UHGV virus genome: UHGV-2199876
Strand: one strand, 5' to 3'
Source: a virus
DNA length: 29,731 nt
The notes beneath the pieces are model-generated. The model was given only the letters and a program-made list of their open reading frames with translations, searched no databases and was not told the origin of the DNA. Below, in pieces: positions 7,540 through 16,021 of the stretch. Position 1 is the stretch's first letter, and each line of letters begins with the position of its first letter. The translations under genes and the position numbers were made by a program.

Positions 7540-7875
7540 CAAAAGAACACAATCAAAGATCGTAAAACAACAATAATAATTCACACAAAATAAAGAACAC
7601 AAATACAGAAAACAACAACACAATAAAAACAAGAGAACACAAGCTATAAATATTACACCAATAGAGAACACTAATCAAGAACATATCAGCACATAATTCC
7701 CCATTATACGCGCGTATAATGGGGAATTATGTGCTGATTTTCAGAACAAAGTCAAGGAACAAATTTTAATGTTCCGATATTGTGTTTTTATTTATTATCC
7801 GTTATTGTGTTATGTTAATTTGTGACTAAGTTAACGCGTTATTAGTTATCTTATTCTCAAATTGTGTTACGATAA
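7540..7875. other. tos-like region: telomere-resolution palindrome flanked by inverted AACACAA / TTGTGTT repeats
   Basis: Left of the palindrome: AGAACACAA at 7544, 7594, 7634, with 7665 and 7678 as variants. Right of it: ATTGTGTT at 7779, 7804, 7862. The two sets are in inverted orientation around 7685-7738. Confidence 0.7.
7685..7738. other. telRL-like telomere resolution site (54-bp perfect palindrome with a central CGCGCG)
   Basis: atcagcacataattccccattatacgcg | cgcgtataatggggaattatgtgctgat checked base by base: perfect dyad over 54 bp. Closely resembles the N15 telRL/telO palindrome as I remember it (TATCAGCACACAATTGCCCATTATACGCGCGTATAATGG...). Sits just upstream of telN. Confidence 0.85.
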
Positions 7876-7902: not shown

Positions 7903-9816
7903 ATGAGCAAAGTAAAAATCGGTGAATTAATAAACTCACTTGTTAGCGATGTTGAGTCAATAGATAACTCTGACCGTCCTCAAGGGGAGAAAACAAAAAA
8001 AATAAAGGCTGTTGCATTAAAATTTAAAAATGCATTATTTAATGACAAGCGAAAGTTTAGGGGTAAAGGATTAGAAAAAAGAATTACAGCCAACACATTC
8101 AATGCCTATATGAGCAGGGCCAGAAAACGGTTTGATGATAAACTTCATCATAGCTTTGAAAAAAATATACATCGCCTATCTGAAAAGTATCCTTTATATA
8201 ATGAGGAGCTATTATCATGGCTTTCTCTACCTGCTGCCGATATTCGCCAGAGAATGTCAGCTTTACAGGCAAAATTAAAATTAATTCTCCCTCTATCAGA
8301 AGATTTATCTAATATCAGAATTGGCGATAACAAAAATCATAATAAGTTATTAAAATTATCAAATAAATATAAAGAGTGGCAATTCGCCATTTCTGATTTA
8401 ACTAGCGATAACTGGAAAGATAAGCGCGATTATTTATATAAATTACTACAGCAAGGATCTGCCTTACTTGAGGAGTTGAATCAGCTAAAAGTTAACCATG
8501 AGATTCTCTATCATCTTCAACTAAGCCCTGCCGAACGCGCATCTATCCAGCAACGATGGGCGGACGTTCTGCACAATAAGAAACGTAACGTGGTGGTCAT
8601 TGATTACCCCAAATATATGCAAGCTATTTACGATATTATAAATAGCCCTGCTACATTAAATAATCTAAACACTCGTTCAGGTATGGCTCCTTTGGCATTT
8701 GCACTTGCTGCATTGTCAGGAAGACGAATGATTGAGATTATGTATCAAGGTACATTTACTGTTTCTGGTAAGTATACCGTTGATTTTTTAGGCCAAGCAA
8801 AAAAAAGAACTTCTGATGATATAACCAGAAAAATATATACATTATGCGAAGCAAAAACATTTGTTTATTTAATAAATGTACTTCGCTCATGCCCAGCAGC
8901 ATCTGATTTTGATGATGTCGTTAAAGGTTATGGAGATAACGACACACGCTCTGAAAACGGACGGATTAATGCCATATTAGCAAAGGCTTTTAACCCGTGG
9001 GTTAAATCATTTTTCAAAGATGACCGCCGTGTTTATAAAGATAGTCGTGCTATTTATGCCCGTATTGCGTATGAAATGTTTTTCCGCGTAGATCCTCGTT
9101 GGAAAAACGTAGATGAGGATGTTTTCTTTATGGAAATTTTAGGCCATGACGATGAAAACACTCAATTACACTATAAGCAATTCAAGCTGGCCAACTTCTC
9201 AAAGACATGGAGGCCAAATACTGGAAACGAAAATACCAGGCTGGAAGCATTGCAGCAGCTTGATGACGAAATGCCAGGATTCGCCAGAGGAGATGCCGGA
9301 GTTCGTCTGCATAACACAGTTAAGCAGCTGGTAGAGCAGGACCCCTCTATAAAAATCACGAACAGCACTCTAAGAGCATTCAAATTTAGCCCTACAATGA
9401 TTAGTCGATACCTAGAATTTGCTGCTGATGCTCTGGGGCAATTTGTTGGCGAAAATGGACAATGGCAGCTGAAAATAGATTCTCCAGAAATCGTTATGCC
9501 TGACGAAGAAGAGCTGGAAGCAATACCTGAACAGACGGATGAATTATCAGAGGATGACGATCTGGATGACGACGAAATTGAGATAGAGATAGAGGAAGAG
9601 GAAGAGGAAGAGGAAGAGGAAGAGAGCGTAGAAGAACAGCAACCGCCCGCGCCTTCTTCACCTGTATCTAAGCCGGTATTTAAGCCTGTGAGAAATATTG
9701 GTGATGGATCATACGTTGTTGAATTTCATTATAATGGCCAGAATTATGCTTGGTCCGGCAGTGCAAACAGCCCTATATCAGCAATGCAGTTAGCATGGCT
9801 GACATATTTCGGATAA
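7903..9816 (+). CDS. telN: Protelomerase (telomere resolvase) TelN
   Basis: 637-aa ORF closely matching N15 TelN as I remember it (MSKVKIGELIN..., RITANTFNAYMSRARKRFDDKLHHSF, VVVIDYP, GRINAILAKAFNPWVKSFF). Acidic C-terminal tract. SD GGAGAGG upstream. Confidence 0.93.
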   Translation: MSKVKIGELINSLVSDVESIDNSDRPQGEKTKKIKAVALKFKNALFNDKRKFRGKGLEKRITANTFNAYMSRARKRFDDKLHHSFEKNIHRLSEKYPLYNEELLSWLSLPAADIRQRMSALQAKLKLILPLSEDLSNIRIGDNKNHNKLLKLSNKYKEWQFAISDLTSDNWKDKRDYLYKLLQQGSALLEELNQLKVNHEILYHLQLSPAERASIQQRWADVLHNKKRNVVVIDYPKYMQAIYDIINSPATLNNLNTRSGMAPLAFALAALSGRRMIEIMYQGTFTVSGKYTVDFLGQAKKRTSDDITRKIYTLCEAKTFVYLINVLRSCPAASDFDDVVKGYGDNDTRSENGRINAILAKAFNPWVKSFFKDDRRVYKDSRAIYARIAYEMFFRVDPRWKNVDEDVFFMEILGHDDENTQLHYKQFKLANFSKTWRPNTGNENTRLEALQQLDDEMPGFARGDAGVRLHNTVKQLVEQDPSIKITNSTLRAFKFSPTMISRYLEFAADALGQFVGENGQWQLKIDSPEIVMPDEEELEAIPEQTDELSEDDDLDDDEIEIEIEEEEEEEEEEESVEEQQPPAPSSPVSKPVFKPVRNIGDGSYVVEFHYNGQNYAWSGSANSPISAMQLAWLTYFG

Positions 9817-9861: not shown

Positions 9862-10026
9862 CTACCTCGCCTGCCCCTTTTCGTCCTCATCCAACTTTCT
9901 GATAGCCGTAGAATCAATACCCGCCGCCATACACACATCAGATGCAACAAACCACGGTTCGCCGTTGATCATCACTACACGAACCTGATGCTCTTCCTGA
10001 AAGGAAAAGACTGCTAACGCGCTCAT
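9862..10026 (-). CDS. Truncated Bro-N / antirepressor N-terminal-domain protein (54 aa; below the ORF-track length cutoff)
   Basis: Hand translation gives MSALAVFSFQEEHQVRVVMINGEPWFVASDVCMAAGIDSTAIRKLDEDEKGQAR, which fits the Bro-N/Ant N-terminal signature (F.F....R....GEPWFVA.DV......D....LD.DEK). Its ATG overlaps the stop of the upstream ORF (ATGA) with a GGAGG SD. Confidence 0.55.
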   Translation of the reverse strand: MSALAVFSFQEEHQVRVVMINGEPWFVASDVCMAAGIDSTAIRKLDEDEKGQAR

Positions 10027-10256
10027 TCAGCCTCCTTATCGCGCAGCAAGTGCGACGAGAGAGACGCAGAATATCCCTGTGCTTCATGCGTTAACTCACA
10101 CGCAATCTGCAGAAGTTTTCCAGCCTCTGAGAGGTAAATCGACGCCTCACAACTGGAGACTGTCCGATGGGCTGATGATACGAGCGCATAGACCTGAGCC
10201 AGACGTTCATCCAACGATTCCAGCAGGCCAACAGTGTTCATTTTTACCTGATTCAT
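10023..10256 (-). CDS. Small protein translationally coupled to the Bro-N ORF (candidate icd-like leader gene)
   Basis: 77-aa ORF with a GAGGTGG SD 4 nt upstream. Its stop overlaps the start of the Bro-N ORF, the same coupling seen for icd-ant in P1 immI. The icd-like label is by arrangement only. Confidence 0.4.
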   Translation of the reverse strand: MNQVKMNTVGLLESLDERLAQVYALVSSAHRTVSSCEASIYLSEAGKLLQIACELTHEAQGYSASLSSHLLRDKEAE

Positions 10257-10423
10257 GCAGCCACCTCGCGCACCGGAATACGGGCAGACAATACCAGGAC
10301 AAACCGGCTGGCGAACTGGCGACGAGCTTCCCGTTCAGATGACGCGATAGTGGAAAGATGATGAATGTGGGACTTTTTGTCTGTGCGAACGACTGCCGCA
10401 AATTTGAATTTGAACATGGTATG

Positions 10424-10640
10424 CACTCCGTTTTATTGGTCGTGCTACCACCAGAGTTGCGAATCTCTTTATTGGTGGTAGCCCAGGCGGGGTTCGCAAT
10501 ACCGGTAAACGAAGAAACCGGCCCGACCGAAGTCAGCCCCACCTGAGCCACCATAATTCGGATATGCGCAGGTCTATACACACAAAAAAACACGCTGGCG
10601 CGTGTTGTGCGCTTCGTTTTGCCAGGATTGCGAAGTCCCG
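10424..10640 (-). promoter_or_regulatory. Candidate RNA regulatory leader (structured, with mutually complementary heptamers) upstream of the icd-like/Bro-N ORFs
   Basis: About 530 bp with no credible ORF. Perfect 10-bp stem GCTACCACCA...TGGTGGTAGC (10444-10482) with TTGCGAA in its loop; the complementary TTCGCAA at 10495-10501; a second TTGCGAA at 10629-10635. Confidence 0.3.
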
Positions 10641-10797
10641 ACTGCGGGATTTACCGCAGCGAGGTGACTTTACCTCCAAAACGACGCACACGTCAATAAT
10701 TTGCAAAGACATTTTACCCCGTGACCAGTCACGGGGACAGGTGTTTTTATAGTTTGCTTGAACGAGTGATCAGAAGTTGATCGTTAATCAAAGGCCA

Positions 10798-11109
10798 TTA
10801 CGGATTAAGAGAGTGGAAATACCTAACTAACTTACCGGCATCATCACATTTTTCTTTATCTTCTTCCTTAACATAGCCGCGACAGAAGGCTGAATAAAAT
10901 TTCGCATTTTCAGAAGCAAAAGCAGCCGTCGAAAGGAGCAGTTCTTTGCATGATTCTTTTGATGCAGCATCGGGATTATTTTTACATGCAAGCTCCGCTG
11001 ATGAGTTAATAACAGAAATGCTATCTTCCTGGGCATAAACCGCAGCAGAAAAGGCAAAACATAAAACCAAAATAAAACTCTTCACTTTATCTCCTGTAAC
11101 AGTTATCAC
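10798..11109 (-). CDS. Small secreted cysteine-containing protein (103 aa, signal peptide)
   Basis: N-terminal hydrophobic signal (FILVLCFAFSAAVYAQ) and at least 4 Cys in the mature part. SD GGAG upstream. AT-rich relative to its neighbours. Confidence 0.5.
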   Translation of the reverse strand: MITVTGDKVKSFILVLCFAFSAAVYAQEDSISVINSSAELACKNNPDAASKESCKELLLSTAAFASENAKFYSAFCRGYVKEEDKEKCDDAGKLVRYFHSLNP

Positions 11110-11112
11110 AAC

Positions 11113-11520
11113 TCAATCAACTTTTTTAGCATCAGCCATACGCTTCAACCAGTAATCAACAATCGGCTGCTCATCCACAGAATGTTTACCAGGTATAACT
11201 CGCCAGCTATCTTGCGAAAATCTGCCGTACTTACGCGGGAATAGGCCTTTCTTTATCTCCCGCCATGTACTAGGAAAACCATCCACAAAAGTACCAATTA
11301 ACAGGAGAGGGACAAAAATCAGAGCTACAAACCATCGTGCAAGAAAGTGTTCAACAACAACATTTTCACCGTTGTAGTAATACGCATACGCATCCAATAT
11401 GCGAATTTTCCTTACCTTAAAAATAGCCTTATGCTGAGAACGACTTAACTTGATACGAATGTATCCCTTATCCAAAGGGGATTCGTATTTGTATGATTGA
11501 AAAGCCATTTTTAACCCCAC
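11113..11520 (-). CDS. Hypothetical membrane protein (135 aa, one central TM segment)
   Basis: ORF with the hydrophobic segment WFVALIFVPLLLIGTFV. Translationally coupled to its neighbours. Confidence 0.5.
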   Translation of the reverse strand: MGLKMAFQSYKYESPLDKGYIRIKLSRSQHKAIFKVRKIRILDAYAYYYNGENVVVEHFLARWFVALIFVPLLLIGTFVDGFPSTWREIKKGLFPRKYGRFSQDSWRVIPGKHSVDEQPIVDYWLKRMADAKKVD

Positions 11521-11837
11521 TCACCATCAGCAAACAAAGCGTTATACTCTGACAATGGTAGACGGTTGCCCTCGATGTAGAGATTCAGTTCATACTTCGT
11601 CTCCGGGTTTTCCTTGTCGGCTCGTTCCCAACGCTCAGCAGCCTTACGCGCCAATAATTCCACTGCTTTCAGGTAATCCTCCGTACGGAACCAGCCAAAG
11701 ATAAGGCCACGATCTGTTACAGCCCAGGCGACCTTTTTTTCTTCCTCCTGGATAGCCTTAATGCGTCGATCGCATTCATCCCGGCAGAACTGCAGCTGAC
11801 GGTAATCAAGTTTGTCCAAAAATGCAGTAGTAGACAT
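11511..11837 (-). CDS. Hypothetical protein (108 aa)
   Basis: ORF with a GGGGAG SD upstream. Sits in the repA-distal operon. No recognised motif. Confidence 0.5.
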   Translation of the reverse strand: MSTTAFLDKLDYRQLQFCRDECDRRIKAIQEEEKKVAWAVTDRGLIFGWFRTEDYLKAVELLARKAAERWERADKENPETKYELNLYIEGNRLPLSEYNALFADGEWG

Positions 11838-11841
11838 ATTT

Positions 11842-12033
11842 TTACTCCCCGTTCACCGAAAAATCACGATAGAAGCGTTTCCACATACGATAAGTCTGCG
11901 CGAGTTGTTCACCACGAAACATCGCCTTCCTGGCCTTCATGTTTTCCTTGTGAGACTTTCGATCTATGAACCAAAACCATTGCTGGAACACACAAAGCAA
12001 GAGACACAAAGATAATATCCACTGATTACCCAT
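11842..12033 (-). CDS. Small membrane protein (63 aa) translationally coupled to the repA stop
   Basis: The ATG at 12033-12031 overlaps the repA TAA (ATGGGTAA). Sequence MGNQWILSLCLLLCVFQQWFWF... has one TM segment. The ORF track's longer 102-aa version runs back into repA. Confidence 0.35.
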   Translation of the reverse strand: MGNQWILSLCLLLCVFQQWFWFIDRKSHKENMKARKAMFRGEQLAQTYRMWKRFYRDFSVNGE

Positions 12034-15000
12034 AGAAAGCGCCCTGCTCTTCGTAGCTGCATGAGCTATTCCCGGTAATGTATTCTCGTAACCGCCGCAA
12101 TTCATTGCTGGACAAGTGATCCATGAACTCTGTGAGATACAGAGATGCAAACGTCATAGCTATGCTGGCTGATGACCATGATGACATAGTGGCCAGCTCC
12201 TCACCGGAAAGCGCACTCATCGCCCAGGACTCAGGAACAGCCACCGGCAATACGGCCAAAGCCTCAGAAATTACTGAATGAGGGGCGTTTTGAACCTGCT
12301 CGTTTGTGGATCGCGTTTTATCATCCATATATATATTGAGATCCAAATCGCGATCCATTTCGATGGCTGTCTTCTCGGCTTTACGCGTTTTTAGGGTTAG
12401 GCCATCTTTCTGACGCTGAACAAGAATATCCAGCATAAATGCCGCTGATTCAGGCTCAACAAAACGCAAGGTTGGACGCTTATCGCCGTCTCTGCCGCGA
12501 CGTTTACCTGTTTTAAGGCCAAGAGAGTCGCAAATGTTTTTAAACAACGCTTCCGGCACTTTAGGCTTCCCTTTTGGCGTCATAAAACCACCAATGTGCA
12601 GAACGTTATTCAACAGGTCACGGCGTTCGGCTGTCATGAGGTTATCTCGAGCGAATTTGAGACGCTCCTGAGTCGCCTCGCCGGTCATAGTCTCAGGGTT
12701 GATACCGCAGTCGATAAAGTACTGCCGGAGAGTTGCTGATTTAAGCGCATAGAAACCGCGCGCCCCGACTTCAACAGTAGGAGTAGCTTTTACCTTGTAG
12801 TCGATTATTCCAGGGAATTTAGTTTTAAAGACATCATCAGCCTGCTCGCGAGTCATCGCGGTCACTACAAAATATTGCCACTGTCCCGCCTGACGGTATG
12901 CGTAGGTAAAATTGATGGCTGCTTCTTCCCGGTCGTAACGACGAGCTGTTACCTCATCTAAAAGCATTGTTTCATAGCGGCGAACTTTGTCTCGAGCACC
13001 ATCGAAATAGAATTTCAGCGTGCCTTCTTCAACCGGTAGTTTCAGTTCGTTCTCAATATCCCAGCGGACAAGTTTTGCTTGTTCTTCAAGCGTCAGCGCG
13101 CGTTTTTTTAGCAGTTCTTCACGCTCTGATTCTTGTGGAGTTTCTGTATTGAGATGCAGATCCAGTGTCTGTTCCCACACAATATCCCGCGCTTCTTTAC
13201 GCAGATCTTTACCGATATCATTCGCAGCATAATCGGTGGCCAGCGGCGATACCTTATAACCGTCGCTGTGCATGATGCAGATCATGTTGCTGGCGTAGTC
13301 GTTACGCGCAGACGCTTCAATTGCGGCTGCTTTAATTTTCATCCTGGTAAAGTCGGTATTGGCCACCCCCATTGATATACGGTCGCCATCGAAAACGACA
13401 TCCGTCAGTTCACCGTTCATGCCTGCGGTAGCAAGCAATGCCTGGGCGAATGCTCGTTCTATTTTTTGCGGGTCAGTTTCACGTTTTGCGCGAGCTTTAT
13501 CAAAGCCGATAATAAATTCTTTTGCTGTACGGTCGCGGCGTAGCATTTGCACTGCGTCGCTGGGTACAACTTCACCACAGAACATGCCGAAATGACGGTC
13601 AAAATGTTTTTGCTCAATCGACACACCGGATGAAATAGACGGGCTATAAATCAGGCCGTCGTATTTTTTGACCATCTTTTTCGGTTGATTGGTAAATGCT
13701 TCAACTTCTGGCTCTGGTTTGTTTTTCTGGTTTACACACAGAAATTTCTTACCAGGAAAATGCATTCTCAGGGTGGCTGTCACATCTTCTGCAAAGGTGG
13801 AGCTGTCGGTGGCCAACATGATTTTTTCGCCATCCGATACAGCTTTCACCACCTCGGTCATAATGCGATCTTTTTCTGTATAAAAAACCCGGATTGGCTC
13901 ACCTGTTTCGCGGTTGCGAACATCAACAGGTAATTCAATTACGTGGATCTGCAGCCATGCCGGTAAACCTAGTTCTTCACGGCGTTTCATAGCCAGTTCA
14001 GCCAGGTCAACCAGCAGATCGTTCGCATCAGCATCCACCATTATTGGGTGTTGTTCCGTTCTGGCCAGCGCGTCGATTAACGTATTGAATACAGCCACCG
14101 GGTTTTCCATAGCCCGACCGGAAAGAACGGCACGTAGCCCTTGCGTGGCCTCGTCAAAGCCAAAATAGTCGTGCTGGCGCATCAACGGTTGCCAGCAGTT
14201 TTTAACAATCGAGTTTATGCAGATGGTCAGTTTACTGGCGTATGGAGCCATTTCCTGATAGCCAGGGTCCTGATAGTGCAGGATATCGGCTTTTACACCT
14301 TTTCCTTCTGTCATCATTTCCCACAGGCCACCAATAAGGGAAACACGGTGAGCAACAGAGATACCACGTTCTGAGCTATGCATTAAAGGTCGTAACAATC
14401 CAGTAGATTTGCCGGAACCCATACCAGCACGAACGATGACTATCCCCTGTAGTGATTGCACATACTTCAGGACGTCATCGGTCATTACCGAAGTTTCAAA
14501 ACGCTTATAGGTGATATGTTGAGGACGTTTATTGGGATCAGTTATGCGTTCGCTGAATGAGCGCGGAGCCTGGGCAATACGGCACTTTTTATTCAGGCGA
14601 CGGGCAATGTGGTCTTTTACCGTAGCGCGATAGATATTTTCCAGCCCCATTTCACGCAGAACGATGCAGAACATGTTAAATAAGTCTGACGGACTGTTAG
14701 GAACCGGACAGGTTAGCATGCCAATATCCACCGCTCTCAGCAGCTCTTTGGCAAAAGTACGACGGTTATCCCGCTTAATTGTCTTCAGGCGGTTGAGCGT
14801 CAGAGATAGCAAATCAGTGCCGGTTTTCAGGCGGTTTGCAGTTGCAAACAGTTGACGTGCTGTTTCACGAAGTCCACGCAGTTTGTGCAGGTCGTTGAAG
14901 TCACTGCACTCCATTTGCGGATCGTCTTCAAAAGTTGGATAGACGCAGCGGACATCGTTGAATTTCGATAAGATTTCATAGCCAGTCCGCAGGCCGGTAT

Positions 15001-16021
15001 TCCCTTTTCCTTCTGTGGCTGATTTCCGGTCATTATCCAGTGCGCAGGTGATTTTTGCCGCCGGGTACATGTTTACCAGTTGTTCCACAACATGAACCAT
15101 GTTATTAGCGGATACAGCGACAACCACAGCGTCAAAGCGTTTATCTTTTTTCGTGGCAAGCCAGATGGATGCACCAGTAGCAAAACCTTCTGTAACAGCG
15201 ATGTTTTGCGCCCCTTTTAGCTCACCGATAACAAAGCAGGCACCGACGAAATCGCCGCTGGTTACGGCGCTGGTCTGGTATTTTCCACCTTGTTTGTCGA
15301 TTCGCTGCCAACCCACAATACGACCATCGTAACGACCGTCCAGGTGAGCCAGAGGGATAGCCATATACGTGGTTGGCCCCCTGCTCCATTTTGCGCTGTC
15401 GTGACTGGTCACGCGACGCACATCACACGAATTAAAAACGTCACGAATACCTTTTTTAATCGCATATGGCCATGAGCCGTCTTCTGCAGGAGCATGTTCC
15501 CACGCGCTGTGGAATGCCAGCCATCCCAGCAAACGTTCATGGTCCATTTGGTTGTTTTTCAGGTCATTAATTCGTTTTTGTTCTTCACGGCGACGACGTG
15601 CTTCGGCCTGACGTTCTATTCTTGCCCGTTCTTCTTCCGGTTGTGCGACCACGGTCGCATTATTCCGTTGTTGCTCACGGCGATATTCAGAAAACAGGAA
15701 GGAGAAACCGCTCCATGAGCCAGCATCGCTGCCTTTATGGACGAAGTTAATGAACGGGTAATCAATCCCTTTGCTGTGTTCCAGCCGGGAGTAAATTTCT
15801 ACGCGTCCTTTGAGGCTCTTTTCGAGAGCTTCTGGAGATGTTTTATTGTATGAAGAGTAACGCTCAACACCCCCGCGAGGGTTGAGTTGGATGTTGTCGG
15901 AACAGGCAGACCAGTTGATACCAGCCATCTGTGCCAGCTCGGTTAGTTCATCCCGTGCTGCTTCAATTAGCGAGAACGGATCGCTGCCAAAGCGATCCGC
16001 ATAGAAATCGTTTAATGTCAT
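12026..16021 (-). CDS. repA: Replication protein RepA (multidomain primase-helicase, N15 RepA / P4 alpha-like)
   Basis: 1331-aa ORF with Walker A (VRAGMGSGKST) in the central helicase region and a primase-like N-terminal part. Size and position match N15 repA. Confidence 0.9.
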   Translation of the reverse strand: MTLNDFYADRFGSDPFSLIEAARDELTELAQMAGINWSACSDNIQLNPRGGVERYSSYNKTSPEALEKSLKGRVEIYSRLEHSKGIDYPFINFVHKGSDAGSWSGFSFLFSEYRREQQRNNATVVAQPEEERARIERQAEARRRREEQKRINDLKNNQMDHERLLGWLAFHSAWEHAPAEDGSWPYAIKKGIRDVFNSCDVRRVTSHDSAKWSRGPTTYMAIPLAHLDGRYDGRIVGWQRIDKQGGKYQTSAVTSGDFVGACFVIGELKGAQNIAVTEGFATGASIWLATKKDKRFDAVVVAVSANNMVHVVEQLVNMYPAAKITCALDNDRKSATEGKGNTGLRTGYEILSKFNDVRCVYPTFEDDPQMECSDFNDLHKLRGLRETARQLFATANRLKTGTDLLSLTLNRLKTIKRDNRRTFAKELLRAVDIGMLTCPVPNSPSDLFNMFCIVLREMGLENIYRATVKDHIARRLNKKCRIAQAPRSFSERITDPNKRPQHITYKRFETSVMTDDVLKYVQSLQGIVIVRAGMGSGKSTGLLRPLMHSSERGISVAHRVSLIGGLWEMMTEGKGVKADILHYQDPGYQEMAPYASKLTICINSIVKNCWQPLMRQHDYFGFDEATQGLRAVLSGRAMENPVAVFNTLIDALARTEQHPIMVDADANDLLVDLAELAMKRREELGLPAWLQIHVIELPVDVRNRETGEPIRVFYTEKDRIMTEVVKAVSDGEKIMLATDSSTFAEDVTATLRMHFPGKKFLCVNQKNKPEPEVEAFTNQPKKMVKKYDGLIYSPSISSGVSIEQKHFDRHFGMFCGEVVPSDAVQMLRRDRTAKEFIIGFDKARAKRETDPQKIERAFAQALLATAGMNGELTDVVFDGDRISMGVANTDFTRMKIKAAAIEASARNDYASNMICIMHSDGYKVSPLATDYAANDIGKDLRKEARDIVWEQTLDLHLNTETPQESEREELLKKRALTLEEQAKLVRWDIENELKLPVEEGTLKFYFDGARDKVRRYETMLLDEVTARRYDREEAAINFTYAYRQAGQWQYFVVTAMTREQADDVFKTKFPGIIDYKVKATPTVEVGARGFYALKSATLRQYFIDCGINPETMTGEATQERLKFARDNLMTAERRDLLNNVLHIGGFMTPKGKPKVPEALFKNICDSLGLKTGKRRGRDGDKRPTLRFVEPESAAFMLDILVQRQKDGLTLKTRKAEKTAIEMDRDLDLNIYMDDKTRSTNEQVQNAPHSVISEALAVLPVAVPESWAMSALSGEELATMSSWSSASIAMTFASLYLTEFMDHLSSNELRRLREYITGNSSCSYEEQGAFYG
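15644..15659. other. sopC-like centromere site (TGCGACC-AC-GGTCGCA) inside repA
   Basis: 16-bp match to the inverted repeat shared by the four other sites. Same 7-2-7 architecture as F sopC (TGGGACC-AC-GGTCCCA). Confidence 0.55.

What the first reader, a model, noticed from the sequence alone, without database searches (positions are those of the whole stretch)
10798..12033. Operon of four small membrane or secreted proteins coupled to the 3' end of repA
Directly downstream of repA on the same strand, with overlapping or near-overlapping starts: a 63-aa TM protein coupled to the repA stop, a 108-aa protein, a 135-aa TM protein and a 103-aa signal-peptide protein with several cysteines. None has a recognisable motif and the block is more AT-rich than repA. 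This composition and position are typical of accessory cargo such as superinfection exclusion, defence or host-interaction genes.
Basis: inference. Interest (0 to 1): 0.55.

Follow-up and report, generated by a model that had tools for sequence, protein, structure and literature searches.

The report
Small-gene tail of the repA operon
The four small genes are real and form the tail end of the replication-gene operon of an N15-like linear phage-plasmid: three are recurrent backbone genes of unknown function, and only the last, an exported four-cysteine protein, sits in the known cargo slot, so the finding is largely ordinary.

Summary
The window is 100% identical to Escherichia phage PhiR46_1, an N15-like telomere phage-plasmid. 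The four ORFs exist on the minus strand right after repA.

- **orfA** (63 aa) is a single-pass membrane protein. Its ATG overlaps the repA stop by 8 nt, and this overlap is conserved in 14 related loci.
- **orfB** (108 aa) is the orthologue of N15 gp35. It is near-universal in the group and under strong purifying selection.
- **orfC** is best read as 131 aa, not 135. It belongs to a membrane-anchor family found just downstream of replication genes in several phage types.
- **orfD** is best read as 95 aa, not 103. It is a Sec-exported, four-cysteine helical protein of a very small family.

A, B and C assort independently among 38 relatives. They alternate with unrelated alleles (N15 gp36, gp34, gp33).

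orfD occupies the hot spot that holds telocin–immunity cassettes in Klebsiella telomere phages. Elsewhere the same slot holds lipoproteins or a ParE toxin.

The depositor's "Spackle" label for orfD is not supported, because only the signal peptides align.

No Pfam, NCBIfam, PADLOC, PDB or fold match gives a function. The best reading is a mosaic, nin-like accessory tail of the repA operon (A–C) plus one periplasmic moron (D).

The parts
12026..16021 (-). repA (1331 aa primase/helicase-type replication initiator; first gene of the operon)
   Evidence: ORF. Annotated 'primase' or 'plasmid replication protein, CyRepA1 family' in identical records. Orthologue of N15 gene 37.
11842..12033 (-). orfA, 63 aa: single-pass inner-membrane protein (TM 5-23) with a basic (+6) C-terminal tail carrying the conserved motif RG..FA..YR.W..YRE. 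Its ATG overlaps the repA stop by 8 nt.
   Evidence: Relatives at 37-51% identity in Klebsiella and Citrobacter telomere plasmids at the same position. The overlap is conserved in 14 loci with TAA, TAG or TGA stops.
11511..11837 (-). orfB, 108 aa: soluble alpha/beta protein, orthologue of N15 gp35 (phrog_10878)
   Evidence: Family alignment A4 with invariant H26, R33, W59, G77, P79. Relatives in Klebsiella, Enterobacter and Yersinia telomere phages, and downstream of a DNA polymerase gene or lambda-type P in Proteus and Providencia phages.
Signal peptide at 11032-11085; 77-aa mature periplasmic protein with 4 invariant Cys at 10801-11031.
   Evidence: Only about 5 genuine family members among 1.84 billion representatives. 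Helical but low-confidence model.
10717..10736 (-). GC-rich hairpin (8-bp stem CCCCGUGA/UCACGGGG, 4-nt loop) 62 nt after the orfD stop: the likely but weak terminator of the repA operon
   Evidence: Sequence and fold. N15 has an annotated terminator at the equivalent place after gene 33. The U-tract is poor, so its function is inferred.
10471..10660 (-). Downstream boundary: isrK-like RNA (10585-10660) and C4 antisense RNA (10471-10558) of the antirepressor (immA-type) locus. Not part of the block.
   Evidence: Rfam: C4 82.3 bits (gathering 45), isrK 52.8 bits (gathering 50). A terminator-like site lies at 10589-10606.

Best explanation
The segment is the promoter-distal tail of the repA operon of an N15-like telomere phage-plasmid. 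It is the positional equivalent of N15 genes 36-33.

**Expression (inferred).** The four genes are read with repA from the CB-repressed repA promoter. They would therefore be made at a low level in the lysogen and at a high level after derepression. Transcription probably stops at the hairpin at 10717-10736, before the C4/isrK-controlled antirepressor operon.

**Organisation (shown).** The tail is a mosaic of independent small genes, not one machine.
- orfA is translated by termination-reinitiation at the repA stop, so it is made in step with RepA. It inserts in the inner membrane with a basic cytoplasmic tail.
- orfB (gp35) is a cytoplasmic alpha/beta protein kept by nearly all members of the group.
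- orfC is a membrane-anchored protein of a family that recurs directly after phage replication genes.
- orfD fills the cargo hot spot.

**Function of A-C (inferred).** I read them as nin-like accessory early proteins. They would modulate replication or host physiology at the inner membrane and would be dispensable for basic plasmid replication.

**Function of orfD (inferred).** It is exported by Sec, folds in the periplasm with two disulfides, and most likely protects the lysogen's envelope. The likely mode is superinfection exclusion at DNA entry, or neutralisation of a cell-wall-targeting phage or bacteriocin enzyme.

The anatomy, conservation pattern and slot identity are shown here. Co-transcription and all functions are inferred.
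For: **Identity and layout.** The window is 100% identical to PhiR46_1 and to several E. coli plasmids. N15 has the same arrangement: gene 37, then four small genes, then a terminator, then the antirepressor operon.

**Operon structure.** Gaps are -8, 4, 2 and 27 nt with Shine-Dalgarno sequences. No promoter-like site lies inside the block.

**orfA coupling.** The ATGNNTRR overlap with the repA stop is conserved in 14 of 14 A-type loci.

**Survey of 38 non-redundant loci.**
- Slot 1 holds A-type in 21, gp36-type in 10 and neither in 7.
- B is present in 36 of 38.
- Slot 3 holds C, gp33, gp34 or a 127-aa family.
- A and C assort independently.

**Cargo slot.** Its contents in relatives are D, lipoproteins of 270 and about 140 aa, TelA with a colicin-immunity-type protein, TelB with a Pim-type protein, ParE and a hexapeptide transferase. 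It matches the telocin locus of PMC12042878.

**orfC family.** Members lie next to RepA (Yersinia P840), a DNA polymerase gene (Proteus phage Isfahan, 4-nt overlap) and lambda-type P in a nin region (Providencia).

**orfD relatives.** One sits in the same slot of another N15-like element. The others sit beside the tape-measure gene or after gpI in siphovirus tail clusters.

**Selection.** All four genes are under purifying selection.

**Copy number.** N15 copy number rises from about 5 to about 50 per cell on antirepressor expression (PMC2847241).
Against: - There are no expression or phenotype data for any of the four genes.
- The telomere-phage lysogen proteome in PMC12042878 detected only nine phage proteins, and none was a repA-distal hypothetical.
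- The hairpin lacks a good U-tract.
- The tight conserved coupling of orfA to repA, and the co-variation of the slot-1 allele with the RepA C-terminus (73-100% versus 45-54% identity), could mean a dedicated RepA partner rather than a dispensable accessory.
- That repA alone suffices for N15 mini-replicons is recalled from the N15 literature, not verified here. The pJAZZ paper does not say whether genes 33-36 were removed.
- The orfD model is low-confidence (pLDDT 58.8), so nothing structural supports its proposed role.
Confidence: 0.6

Rival explanations
1. orfA-C are dedicated cofactors of RepA-driven replication. For example, they could tether the replisome or the linear plasmid to the inner membrane, as the small membrane proteins p1 and p16.7 do for phi29. 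On this reading they are core genes, not accessory ones.
For: - The 8-nt overlap of orfA with the repA stop is conserved across three A subtypes.
- The slot-1 allele co-varies with the RepA C-terminal type.
- B is near-universal with dN/dS 0.05-0.13.
- C-family genes are coupled to three different kinds of replication gene.
Against: - Slots 1 and 3 hold unrelated alternatives: gp36 has no TM segment, and C versus gp33 gives hhalign probability 0.4%.
- Seven loci have no recognisable slot-1 gene, and six have neither C nor gp33.
- B is absent from YDC107_1 and from the element carrying P0090.
- From recalled N15 literature, repA alone supports mini-replicons.
- The phi29 analogy is functional only; no homology was found.
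Confidence: 0.22
2. The four genes form one defence or superinfection-exclusion cassette, Rex-like, with membrane components plus a cytoplasmic sensor.
For: - Three of the four products are membrane or periplasmic proteins.
- The operon should be expressed in the lysogen (inferred).
- C and D are AT-richer than repA.
Against: - No PADLOC model matches even at E<=1.
- The genes assort independently among relatives.
- B and the A coupling are conserved backbone features.
- D is replaced by unrelated cargo in otherwise near-identical elements (L013 and L018).
Confidence: 0.1
3. orfD is a true homologue of T4 Spackle, as the GenBank record labels it, and inhibits the lysozyme domain of an incoming phage's tail spike.
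For: - The depositor annotated it as 'Spackle exclusion protein'.
- Both are small, Sec-exported, predicted helical periplasmic proteins with disulfide-forming Cys.
Against: - BLASTP against verified T4 Spackle gives E=31.
- A family profile against Spackle aligns only residues 1-16, the signal peptide.
- A profile search of PDB sequences does not find Spackle.
- Foldseek against the PDB finds nothing with E<=0.001.
- The Cys pattern differs: 4 in mature orfD against 2 in the mature Spackle sequence used.
Confidence: 0.04
4. orfA is a small hydrophobic toxin (Hok/TisB-like or holin-like) that contributes to post-segregational killing or lysis timing, with a neighbouring gene as its antidote.
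For: It is 63 aa with one TM segment and a basic tail, and it is tied to a plasmid replication gene.
Against: - A 40-residue cytoplasmic tail with a conserved aromatic/basic motif is atypical of such toxins.
- No antisense RNA or own promoter was detected in the block.
- Translation coupled to RepA would make it constitutively in the lysogen.
- No Pfam or NCBIfam toxin family matches.
Confidence: 0.04

Closest known systems
Phage N15 genes 36-35-34-33 (the repA-distal genes, function unknown)
   Same: Same strand, same position between repA (gene 37) and the antirepressor operon, four small genes, then a terminator. orfB is 64% identical to gp35.
   Different: - orfA (TM peptide overlapping the repA stop) replaces the unrelated soluble gp36, which lies 11 nt after repA.
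- orfC is not detectably related to gp33.
- There is no gp34.
- N15 has no orfD.
Telocin:immunity locus of Klebsiella telomere phages (NAR688 TelA/ImmA; TelB-E), PMC12042878
   Same: orfD lies in the same genomic slot, between the hypothetical genes after RepA and the antirepressor/protelomerase side. In Klebsiella relatives of this window the slot holds TelB plus a Pim-like protein, or TelA plus a colicin-immunity-like protein.
   Different: There is no toxin gene here. orfD matches neither Pim nor Colicin_im nor any other Pfam family. A survey preprint also reports no telocin homologues in its seven full-length N15-like contigs, which spanned five species including Escherichia and Shigella.
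T4 Spackle (Sp), periplasmic inhibitor of the gp5 tail lysozyme
   Same: Small Sec-exported periplasmic protein with a helical prediction and disulfide potential. This is also the depositor's label.
   Different: There is no homology beyond the signal peptide and no fold match. orfD is in a temperate phage-plasmid, not a T-even phage.
Tail-cluster morons of temperate siphoviruses, e.g. HK97 gp15 superinfection exclusion protein (recalled from the literature)
   Same: orfD relatives P0093 and P0094 lie between the tail chaperone genes and the tape-measure gene, and P0092 lies after gpI. These are classic moron sites.
   Different: The resemblance is positional and functional only. Homology to gp15, Cor, Lom or Bor was not tested with their sequences. 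gp15 is membrane-anchored, whereas orfD is predicted to be soluble in the periplasm.
Lambda nin region / ren (small non-essential delayed-early genes after the replication genes)
   Same: Small, tightly packed, mosaic genes in the same transcription unit directly after the replication gene. An orfC-family gene lies in the nin region (after P, before NinB) of a Providencia lambdoid prophage.
   Different: No NinB, RusA or NinH homologues occur here, and the block is not followed by Q.

Membership tests
N15 gp35 family (phrog_10878) | Full-length sequence similarity to N15 gp35 | tested here: met
   orfB matches phrog_10878 at E=1.9e-52 over 104 of 104 profile positions. It is 64% identical to N15 gp35 by tblastn. 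There are 72 clusters at 57-97% identity with 21 invariant columns.
N15 gp35 family (phrog_10878) | Location one gene downstream of repA in an N15-like telomere phage | tested here: met
   Same position in 36 of 38 surveyed loci.
T4 Spackle | Sequence or profile homology of the mature domain to Spackle | tested here: not met
   BLASTP E=31. hhalign aligns only signal-peptide residues 1-16. A profile search of PDB sequences does not retrieve 6X6O or 7CN6.
T4 Spackle | Spackle fold | tested here: inconclusive
   Foldseek against the PDB gives no hit with E<=0.001, and Spackle is not among the 19 listed. The query model has pLDDT of only 58.8.
T4 Spackle | Binds and inhibits the gp5 lysozyme domain and excludes superinfecting T-even phage | not testable with these tools
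   Needs binding and efficiency-of-plating assays.
Telocin / bacteriocin-immunity cassette | A bacteriocin toxin gene paired with an immunity gene in the slot | tested here: not met
   Only orfD lies between orfC and the hairpin. TelA and TelB are found in relatives but not in the window.
Telocin / bacteriocin-immunity cassette | Immunity protein of a known family (Colicin_im, Pim) | tested here: not met
   The relatives' immunity proteins hit PF03857 and PF16765. orfD and its family hit no such family.
Known anti-phage defence systems (PADLOC-DB 2.0) | Any component matching a defence-system HMM | tested here: not met
   Zero families for all four proteins at E<=1.
Phage moron (independently acquired lysogenic-conversion gene), applied to orfD | Presence/absence polymorphism among close relatives, different neighbours in different phages, lower GC than flanks | tested here: met
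   - D is replaced by a 270-aa lipoprotein gene in elements with 98-100% identical A and B (L013 and L018).
- Relatives lie in siphovirus tail clusters.
- GC is 0.389 and GC3 0.302, against 0.487 and 0.479 for repA.
Phage moron, applied to orfD | Own promoter and terminator | tested here: inconclusive
   A hairpin follows orfD. Only 27 nt separate orfD from orfC and no promoter-like site was found. In the P0090 element the gene has about 750 nt of upstream spacer.

The most novel reading that the evidence does not exclude
Two novel readings remain open.

1. orfD founds a new family of periplasmic, disulfide-bonded four-helix proteins that temperate phages use to exclude superinfecting phages. 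They might instead disarm peptidoglycan-targeting weapons, acting as an 'orphan immunity' gene in the telocin slot.
2. Separately, orfA is a RepA-coupled inner-membrane anchor that links linear-plasmid replication to the membrane.
Probability: 0.2. Interest if true: 0.6.

Novelty: new member of a known kind. Interest (0 to 1): 0.3.

Why it matters
N15-like telomere phage-plasmids are common in E. coli, Shigella and Klebsiella. Their repA-to-telN segment is where lysogen-expressed weapons (telocins) sit.

This analysis separates a recurrent, repA-coupled backbone (A, B, C types) from the true cargo slot (D). That tells annotators which genes to screen for lysogenic-conversion traits. It also corrects a misleading "Spackle" label in a public record.

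Functionally it offers two cheap tests. One is whether the small exported four-cysteine protein excludes phages or bacteriocins. The other is whether the RepA-coupled membrane peptide affects copy number. Without such tests the block remains a set of ordinary hypothetical early genes.

Tried and rejected
**Family and structure searches that gave nothing**
- Pfam, NCBIfam and PADLOC scans of all four proteins, and of N15 gp33, gp34, gp36 and the Klebsiella A and C homologues: nothing usable.
- PHROGs: only unknown-function families.
- PDB sequence searches with orfD, the orfD family profile and the orfB profile: only noise, best E=0.05.
- orfB structure against BFVD: only N15 gp34 stands out.
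- The afdb50 library was unavailable.
- orfD model: low confidence, and Foldseek was uninformative.

**Homology leads rejected**
- orfC related to N15 gp33 (both have a hydrophobic segment): rejected by BLASTP and hhalign, probability 0.4%.
- orfB versus gp34 and the 127-aa family: hhalign is weak or negative (E 0.27 and 0.0014). Paralogy therefore rests only on the fold hit.

**Literature and collection leads**
- 'gp35 detected in the NAR688 lysogen proteome' looked like expression evidence for orfB. NAR688 uses its own numbering, and its gp35 is a RelE/ParE toxin. Rejected.
- ECOR13 mentions in Laub-lab papers are unrelated to this prophage.
- No paper mentions PhiR46.
- The genome-contig scan returned only one locus.

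**Apparent orfD homologues**
Many orfD 'homologues' in the protein database are frameshift chimeras of the same gene. At least one related assembly, YDC107_1, also has split repA and telN. These were not counted as family diversity.
Full report
**What the window is.** The 1.8 kb around the finding is 100% identical to Escherichia phage PhiR46_1 (PV340565.1, host E. coli ECOR13). It is also identical to several about 46-kb 'non-mobilizable' E. coli plasmids. The record and the neighbouring genes show an N15-like telomere phage-plasmid. These include sopBA, a 54-bp perfect telRL palindrome at 7685-7738, telN, repA, cB/cI and cro. N15 itself has the same local layout. Gene 37 (repA) is followed on the same strand by four small genes (36, 35, 34, 33), an annotated terminator, and then the antirepressor operon 32-31-30.

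**Checking the observation.**
- All four ORFs exist on the minus strand.
- orfA (11842..12033, 63 aa) starts at an ATG embedded in the last repA codons (ATGGGTAA).
- orfB (11511..11837, 108 aa) starts 4 nt after the orfA stop behind GGGGAG.
- orfC is best started at ATG 11508, giving 131 aa. This start lies 2 nt after the orfB stop and is the one used in GenBank. The PHROG profile aligns from that residue.
- orfD is best started at GTG 11085 behind AGGAG, giving 95 aa, as in GenBank.
- Hydropathy gives one TM segment in orfA (residues 5-23, +6 tail) and none in orfB. orfC has one strong hydrophobic segment (about residues 55-80) with positive flanks on both sides. orfD has an N-terminal signal (…AAVYA|QE) and four Cys in its mature part.
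- GC content is lower than repA for C (0.404), D (0.389) and A (0.438), but not for B (0.489 against 0.487).
- No promoter-like site lies inside the block.
- A GC-rich 8-bp hairpin follows orfD at 10717-10736.
- Rfam then finds isrK (10585-10660) and C4 antisense RNA (10471-10558). These are the control region of the antirepressor locus and bound the block.

**Are they genes?** Yes.
- orfB has 72 clusters in E. coli, Salmonella, Citrobacter, Klebsiella, Enterobacter, Serratia and Atlantibacter, with 21 invariant columns. Its dN/dS is 0.05-0.13.
- orfA has relatives at 37-51% identity in Klebsiella and Citrobacter telomere plasmids. They share a conserved tail motif, RG..FA..YR.W..YRE.
- orfC has relatives at 27-52% identity in Klebsiella, Enterobacter and Yersinia telomere phages and beyond.
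- orfD has a tiny family. An exhaustive HMMER pass over 1.84 billion representatives found only four distant relatives (32-45% identity). All have a signal peptide and the same four Cys.
- Many apparent orfD 'homologues' are frameshift versions of the same gene.

**Comparative anatomy.** I collected 38 non-redundant N15-like loci, mostly by searching with the orfB alignment. The order found is:
- repA;
- slot 1: A-type in 21, N15 gp36-type in 10, neither in 7;
- B, present in 36 of 38;
- slot 3: C-type in 16, otherwise gp33, gp34+gp33, a 127-aa family with gp33, or nothing;
- a variable cargo slot;
- C4/isrK, then icd-gp31-ant, then telN.

Further points from the survey:
- A and C assort independently: A+C in 14 loci, A with the 127-aa family and gp33 in 4, gp36+C in 1.
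- The alternatives are unrelated. hhalign gives probability 0.4% for C against gp33 and 0.1% for A against gp36.
- The slot-1 allele tracks the RepA C-terminal type. A-type loci have 73-100% identity to this RepA's last 110 residues, and gp36-type loci have 45-54%.
- All 14 A-type loci examined keep the 8-nt ATGNNTRR overlap with the repA stop, using TAA, TAG or TGA. Most have a CAGGAGG upstream. This argues for conserved translational coupling of orfA to RepA.

**The cargo slot.**
- In this window the slot holds only orfD.
- In E. coli elements with 98-100% identical A and B it holds instead a 270-aa lipoprotein gene (L013, L018).
- Elsewhere it holds about 140-aa lipoproteins, a ParE toxin with an HTH partner, or a hexapeptide acetyltransferase.
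- It can also hold TelA-like toxin with a colicin-immunity-like protein, or a pesticin-like muramidase with a Pim-like protein.
- This is the published 'telocin:immunity locus' between RepA and the protelomerase of Klebsiella telomere phages. Its products are among the few phage proteins detected in lysogens (PMC12042878).
- A survey preprint reports no telocin homologues in its seven full-length N15-like contigs, which spanned five species including Escherichia and Shigella.
- The nearest orfD relative (P0090, about 44-45% identity) lies in the same slot of a different N15-like element, whose repA is followed by a different 115-aa gene.
- The other three relatives are morons in siphovirus tail clusters. 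They lie between the tail chaperones and the tape-measure gene, or after gpI.
- orfD therefore behaves as an independent moron.

**The 'Spackle' label.** The GenBank record calls orfD 'Spackle'. I verified the T4 Spackle sequence against PDB 6X6O and 7CN6 and compared the two.
- BLASTP gives E=31.
- The family profile aligns only residues 1-16, the signal peptides.
- A profile search of PDB sequences does not retrieve Spackle.
- Foldseek gives nothing, but the model is poor (pLDDT 58.8, four predicted helices).

Membership is not supported. A Spackle-like job (a periplasmic inhibitor of an incoming enzyme) remains possible by analogy only.

**Structures and families for A-C.**
- The orfB model is confident (pLDDT 93): two long helices packed on a three-stranded sheet.
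- The best viral neighbour is N15 gp34 (Foldseek probability 0.99, TM 0.58). This hints that gp34 is a divergent paralogue, although hhalign does not see it.
- orfC-family genes also occur right after RepA in Yersinia phage P840. One overlaps the end of a DNA polymerase gene by 4 nt in Proteus phage Isfahan. Another lies in the nin region after replication protein P in a Providencia lambdoid prophage.
- The family therefore has a recurrent association with replication modules of three different types.

**Interpretation.**
- Shown: the anatomy, the conservation pattern, the independence of the four genes, the identity of the cargo slot, and the absence of any known domain.
- Inferred: co-transcription with repA from the CB-controlled promoter, low in lysogens and high after derepression. 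N15 copy number rises from about 5 to about 50 per cell on antirepressor expression (PMC2847241).
- My reading: A-C are nin-like accessory early genes acting at the inner membrane, with orfA made in step with RepA. orfD is a periplasmic lysogenic-conversion protein that most likely protects the envelope.
- Main rival (0.22): A-C are real RepA cofactors, for example membrane tethers like phi29 p1 and p16.7. The orfA coupling and the universality of B favour this. The unrelated alternative alleles, and the loci lacking them, count against it.
- Minor rivals: a single defence cassette, a true Spackle homologue, and an orfA toxin. All are weakly supported.

**Verdict.** The cargo interpretation holds for orfD only. 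The block is an ordinary, already deposited set of hypothetical genes whose organisation is now clearer. Interest is modest (0.3). The most novel surviving reading is that orfD founds a new periplasmic exclusion or immunity family, or that orfA is a RepA-coupled membrane anchor. I give that reading a probability of about 0.2.

Noticed in passing
window 9862-10026 (-): The antirepressor gene is truncated. The ORF encodes only 54 aa, which match residues 1-52 of the 264-aa N15 Ant (gene 30; 62% identity, E=1e-20). It ends 45 nt from the telN stop. Relatives keep a 259-aa Bro-N protein here. This phage may have lost antirepressor-mediated induction.
   Followed up: partly
window 10471-10660 (-): Rfam finds a C4 antisense RNA (82.3 bits), an isrK-like RNA (52.8 bits) and a sub-threshold c4-a1b1 target (10619-10673). 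They lie upstream of the icd-like gene (10253-10417), so the locus is a P1/N15-type immA antirepressor control region.
   Followed up: partly
window 7685-7738: A perfect 54-bp palindrome (27-nt arms, no spacer) lies in a 29% GC region upstream of telN. Its centre is at 7711/7712, one base from position 1 (telL) of the PhiR46_1 record, which maps to 7713. This is the intact telRL site, so the window is in the uncut (virion or circular) permutation.
   Followed up: yes
L013 and L018 7815-8627; L023 7738-8556: A 270-272-aa predicted lipoprotein (LLSGC lipobox, no Pfam family) replaces orfD in E. coli elements that are otherwise near-identical. It also occurs in a gp36-type element, so it is a second mobile cargo gene for the same slot.
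   Followed up: partly
protein clusters P0003, P0004, P0006, P0008-P0010 (from E. coli plasmids): Several database 'homologues' of orfD are frameshift chimeras between the orfD frame and the overlapping frame (window ORF 10827-11057). The cause is either assembly indels or real decay of orfD in some lineages. At least one related assembly, YDC107_1, also has split repA and telN.
   Followed up: partly
L003 6968-7297 (N15 gene 34); L011 7334-7717: N15 gp34 is the best structural neighbour of the orfB (gp35) model (Foldseek probability 0.99, TM 0.58). A 127-173-aa family in other elements shows weak profile similarity to both (E about 0.0015). This suggests a diversified family of B-like small proteins in this operon.
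   Followed up: partly
window 9494-9661 (within telN, +): The TelN C-terminal region contains a long acidic low-complexity run (…DDDLDDDEIEIEIEEEEEEEEEEESVEEQ…). It generates spurious ORFs on the opposite strand.
   Followed up: no
L002 (Escherichia phage YDC107_1) 4506-5199: This relative combines an N15-type gp36 with a frameshifted C-type gene directly after repA and has no orfB there. It is an example of recombination inside the block. The record also holds a second, intact C copy elsewhere.
   Followed up: no
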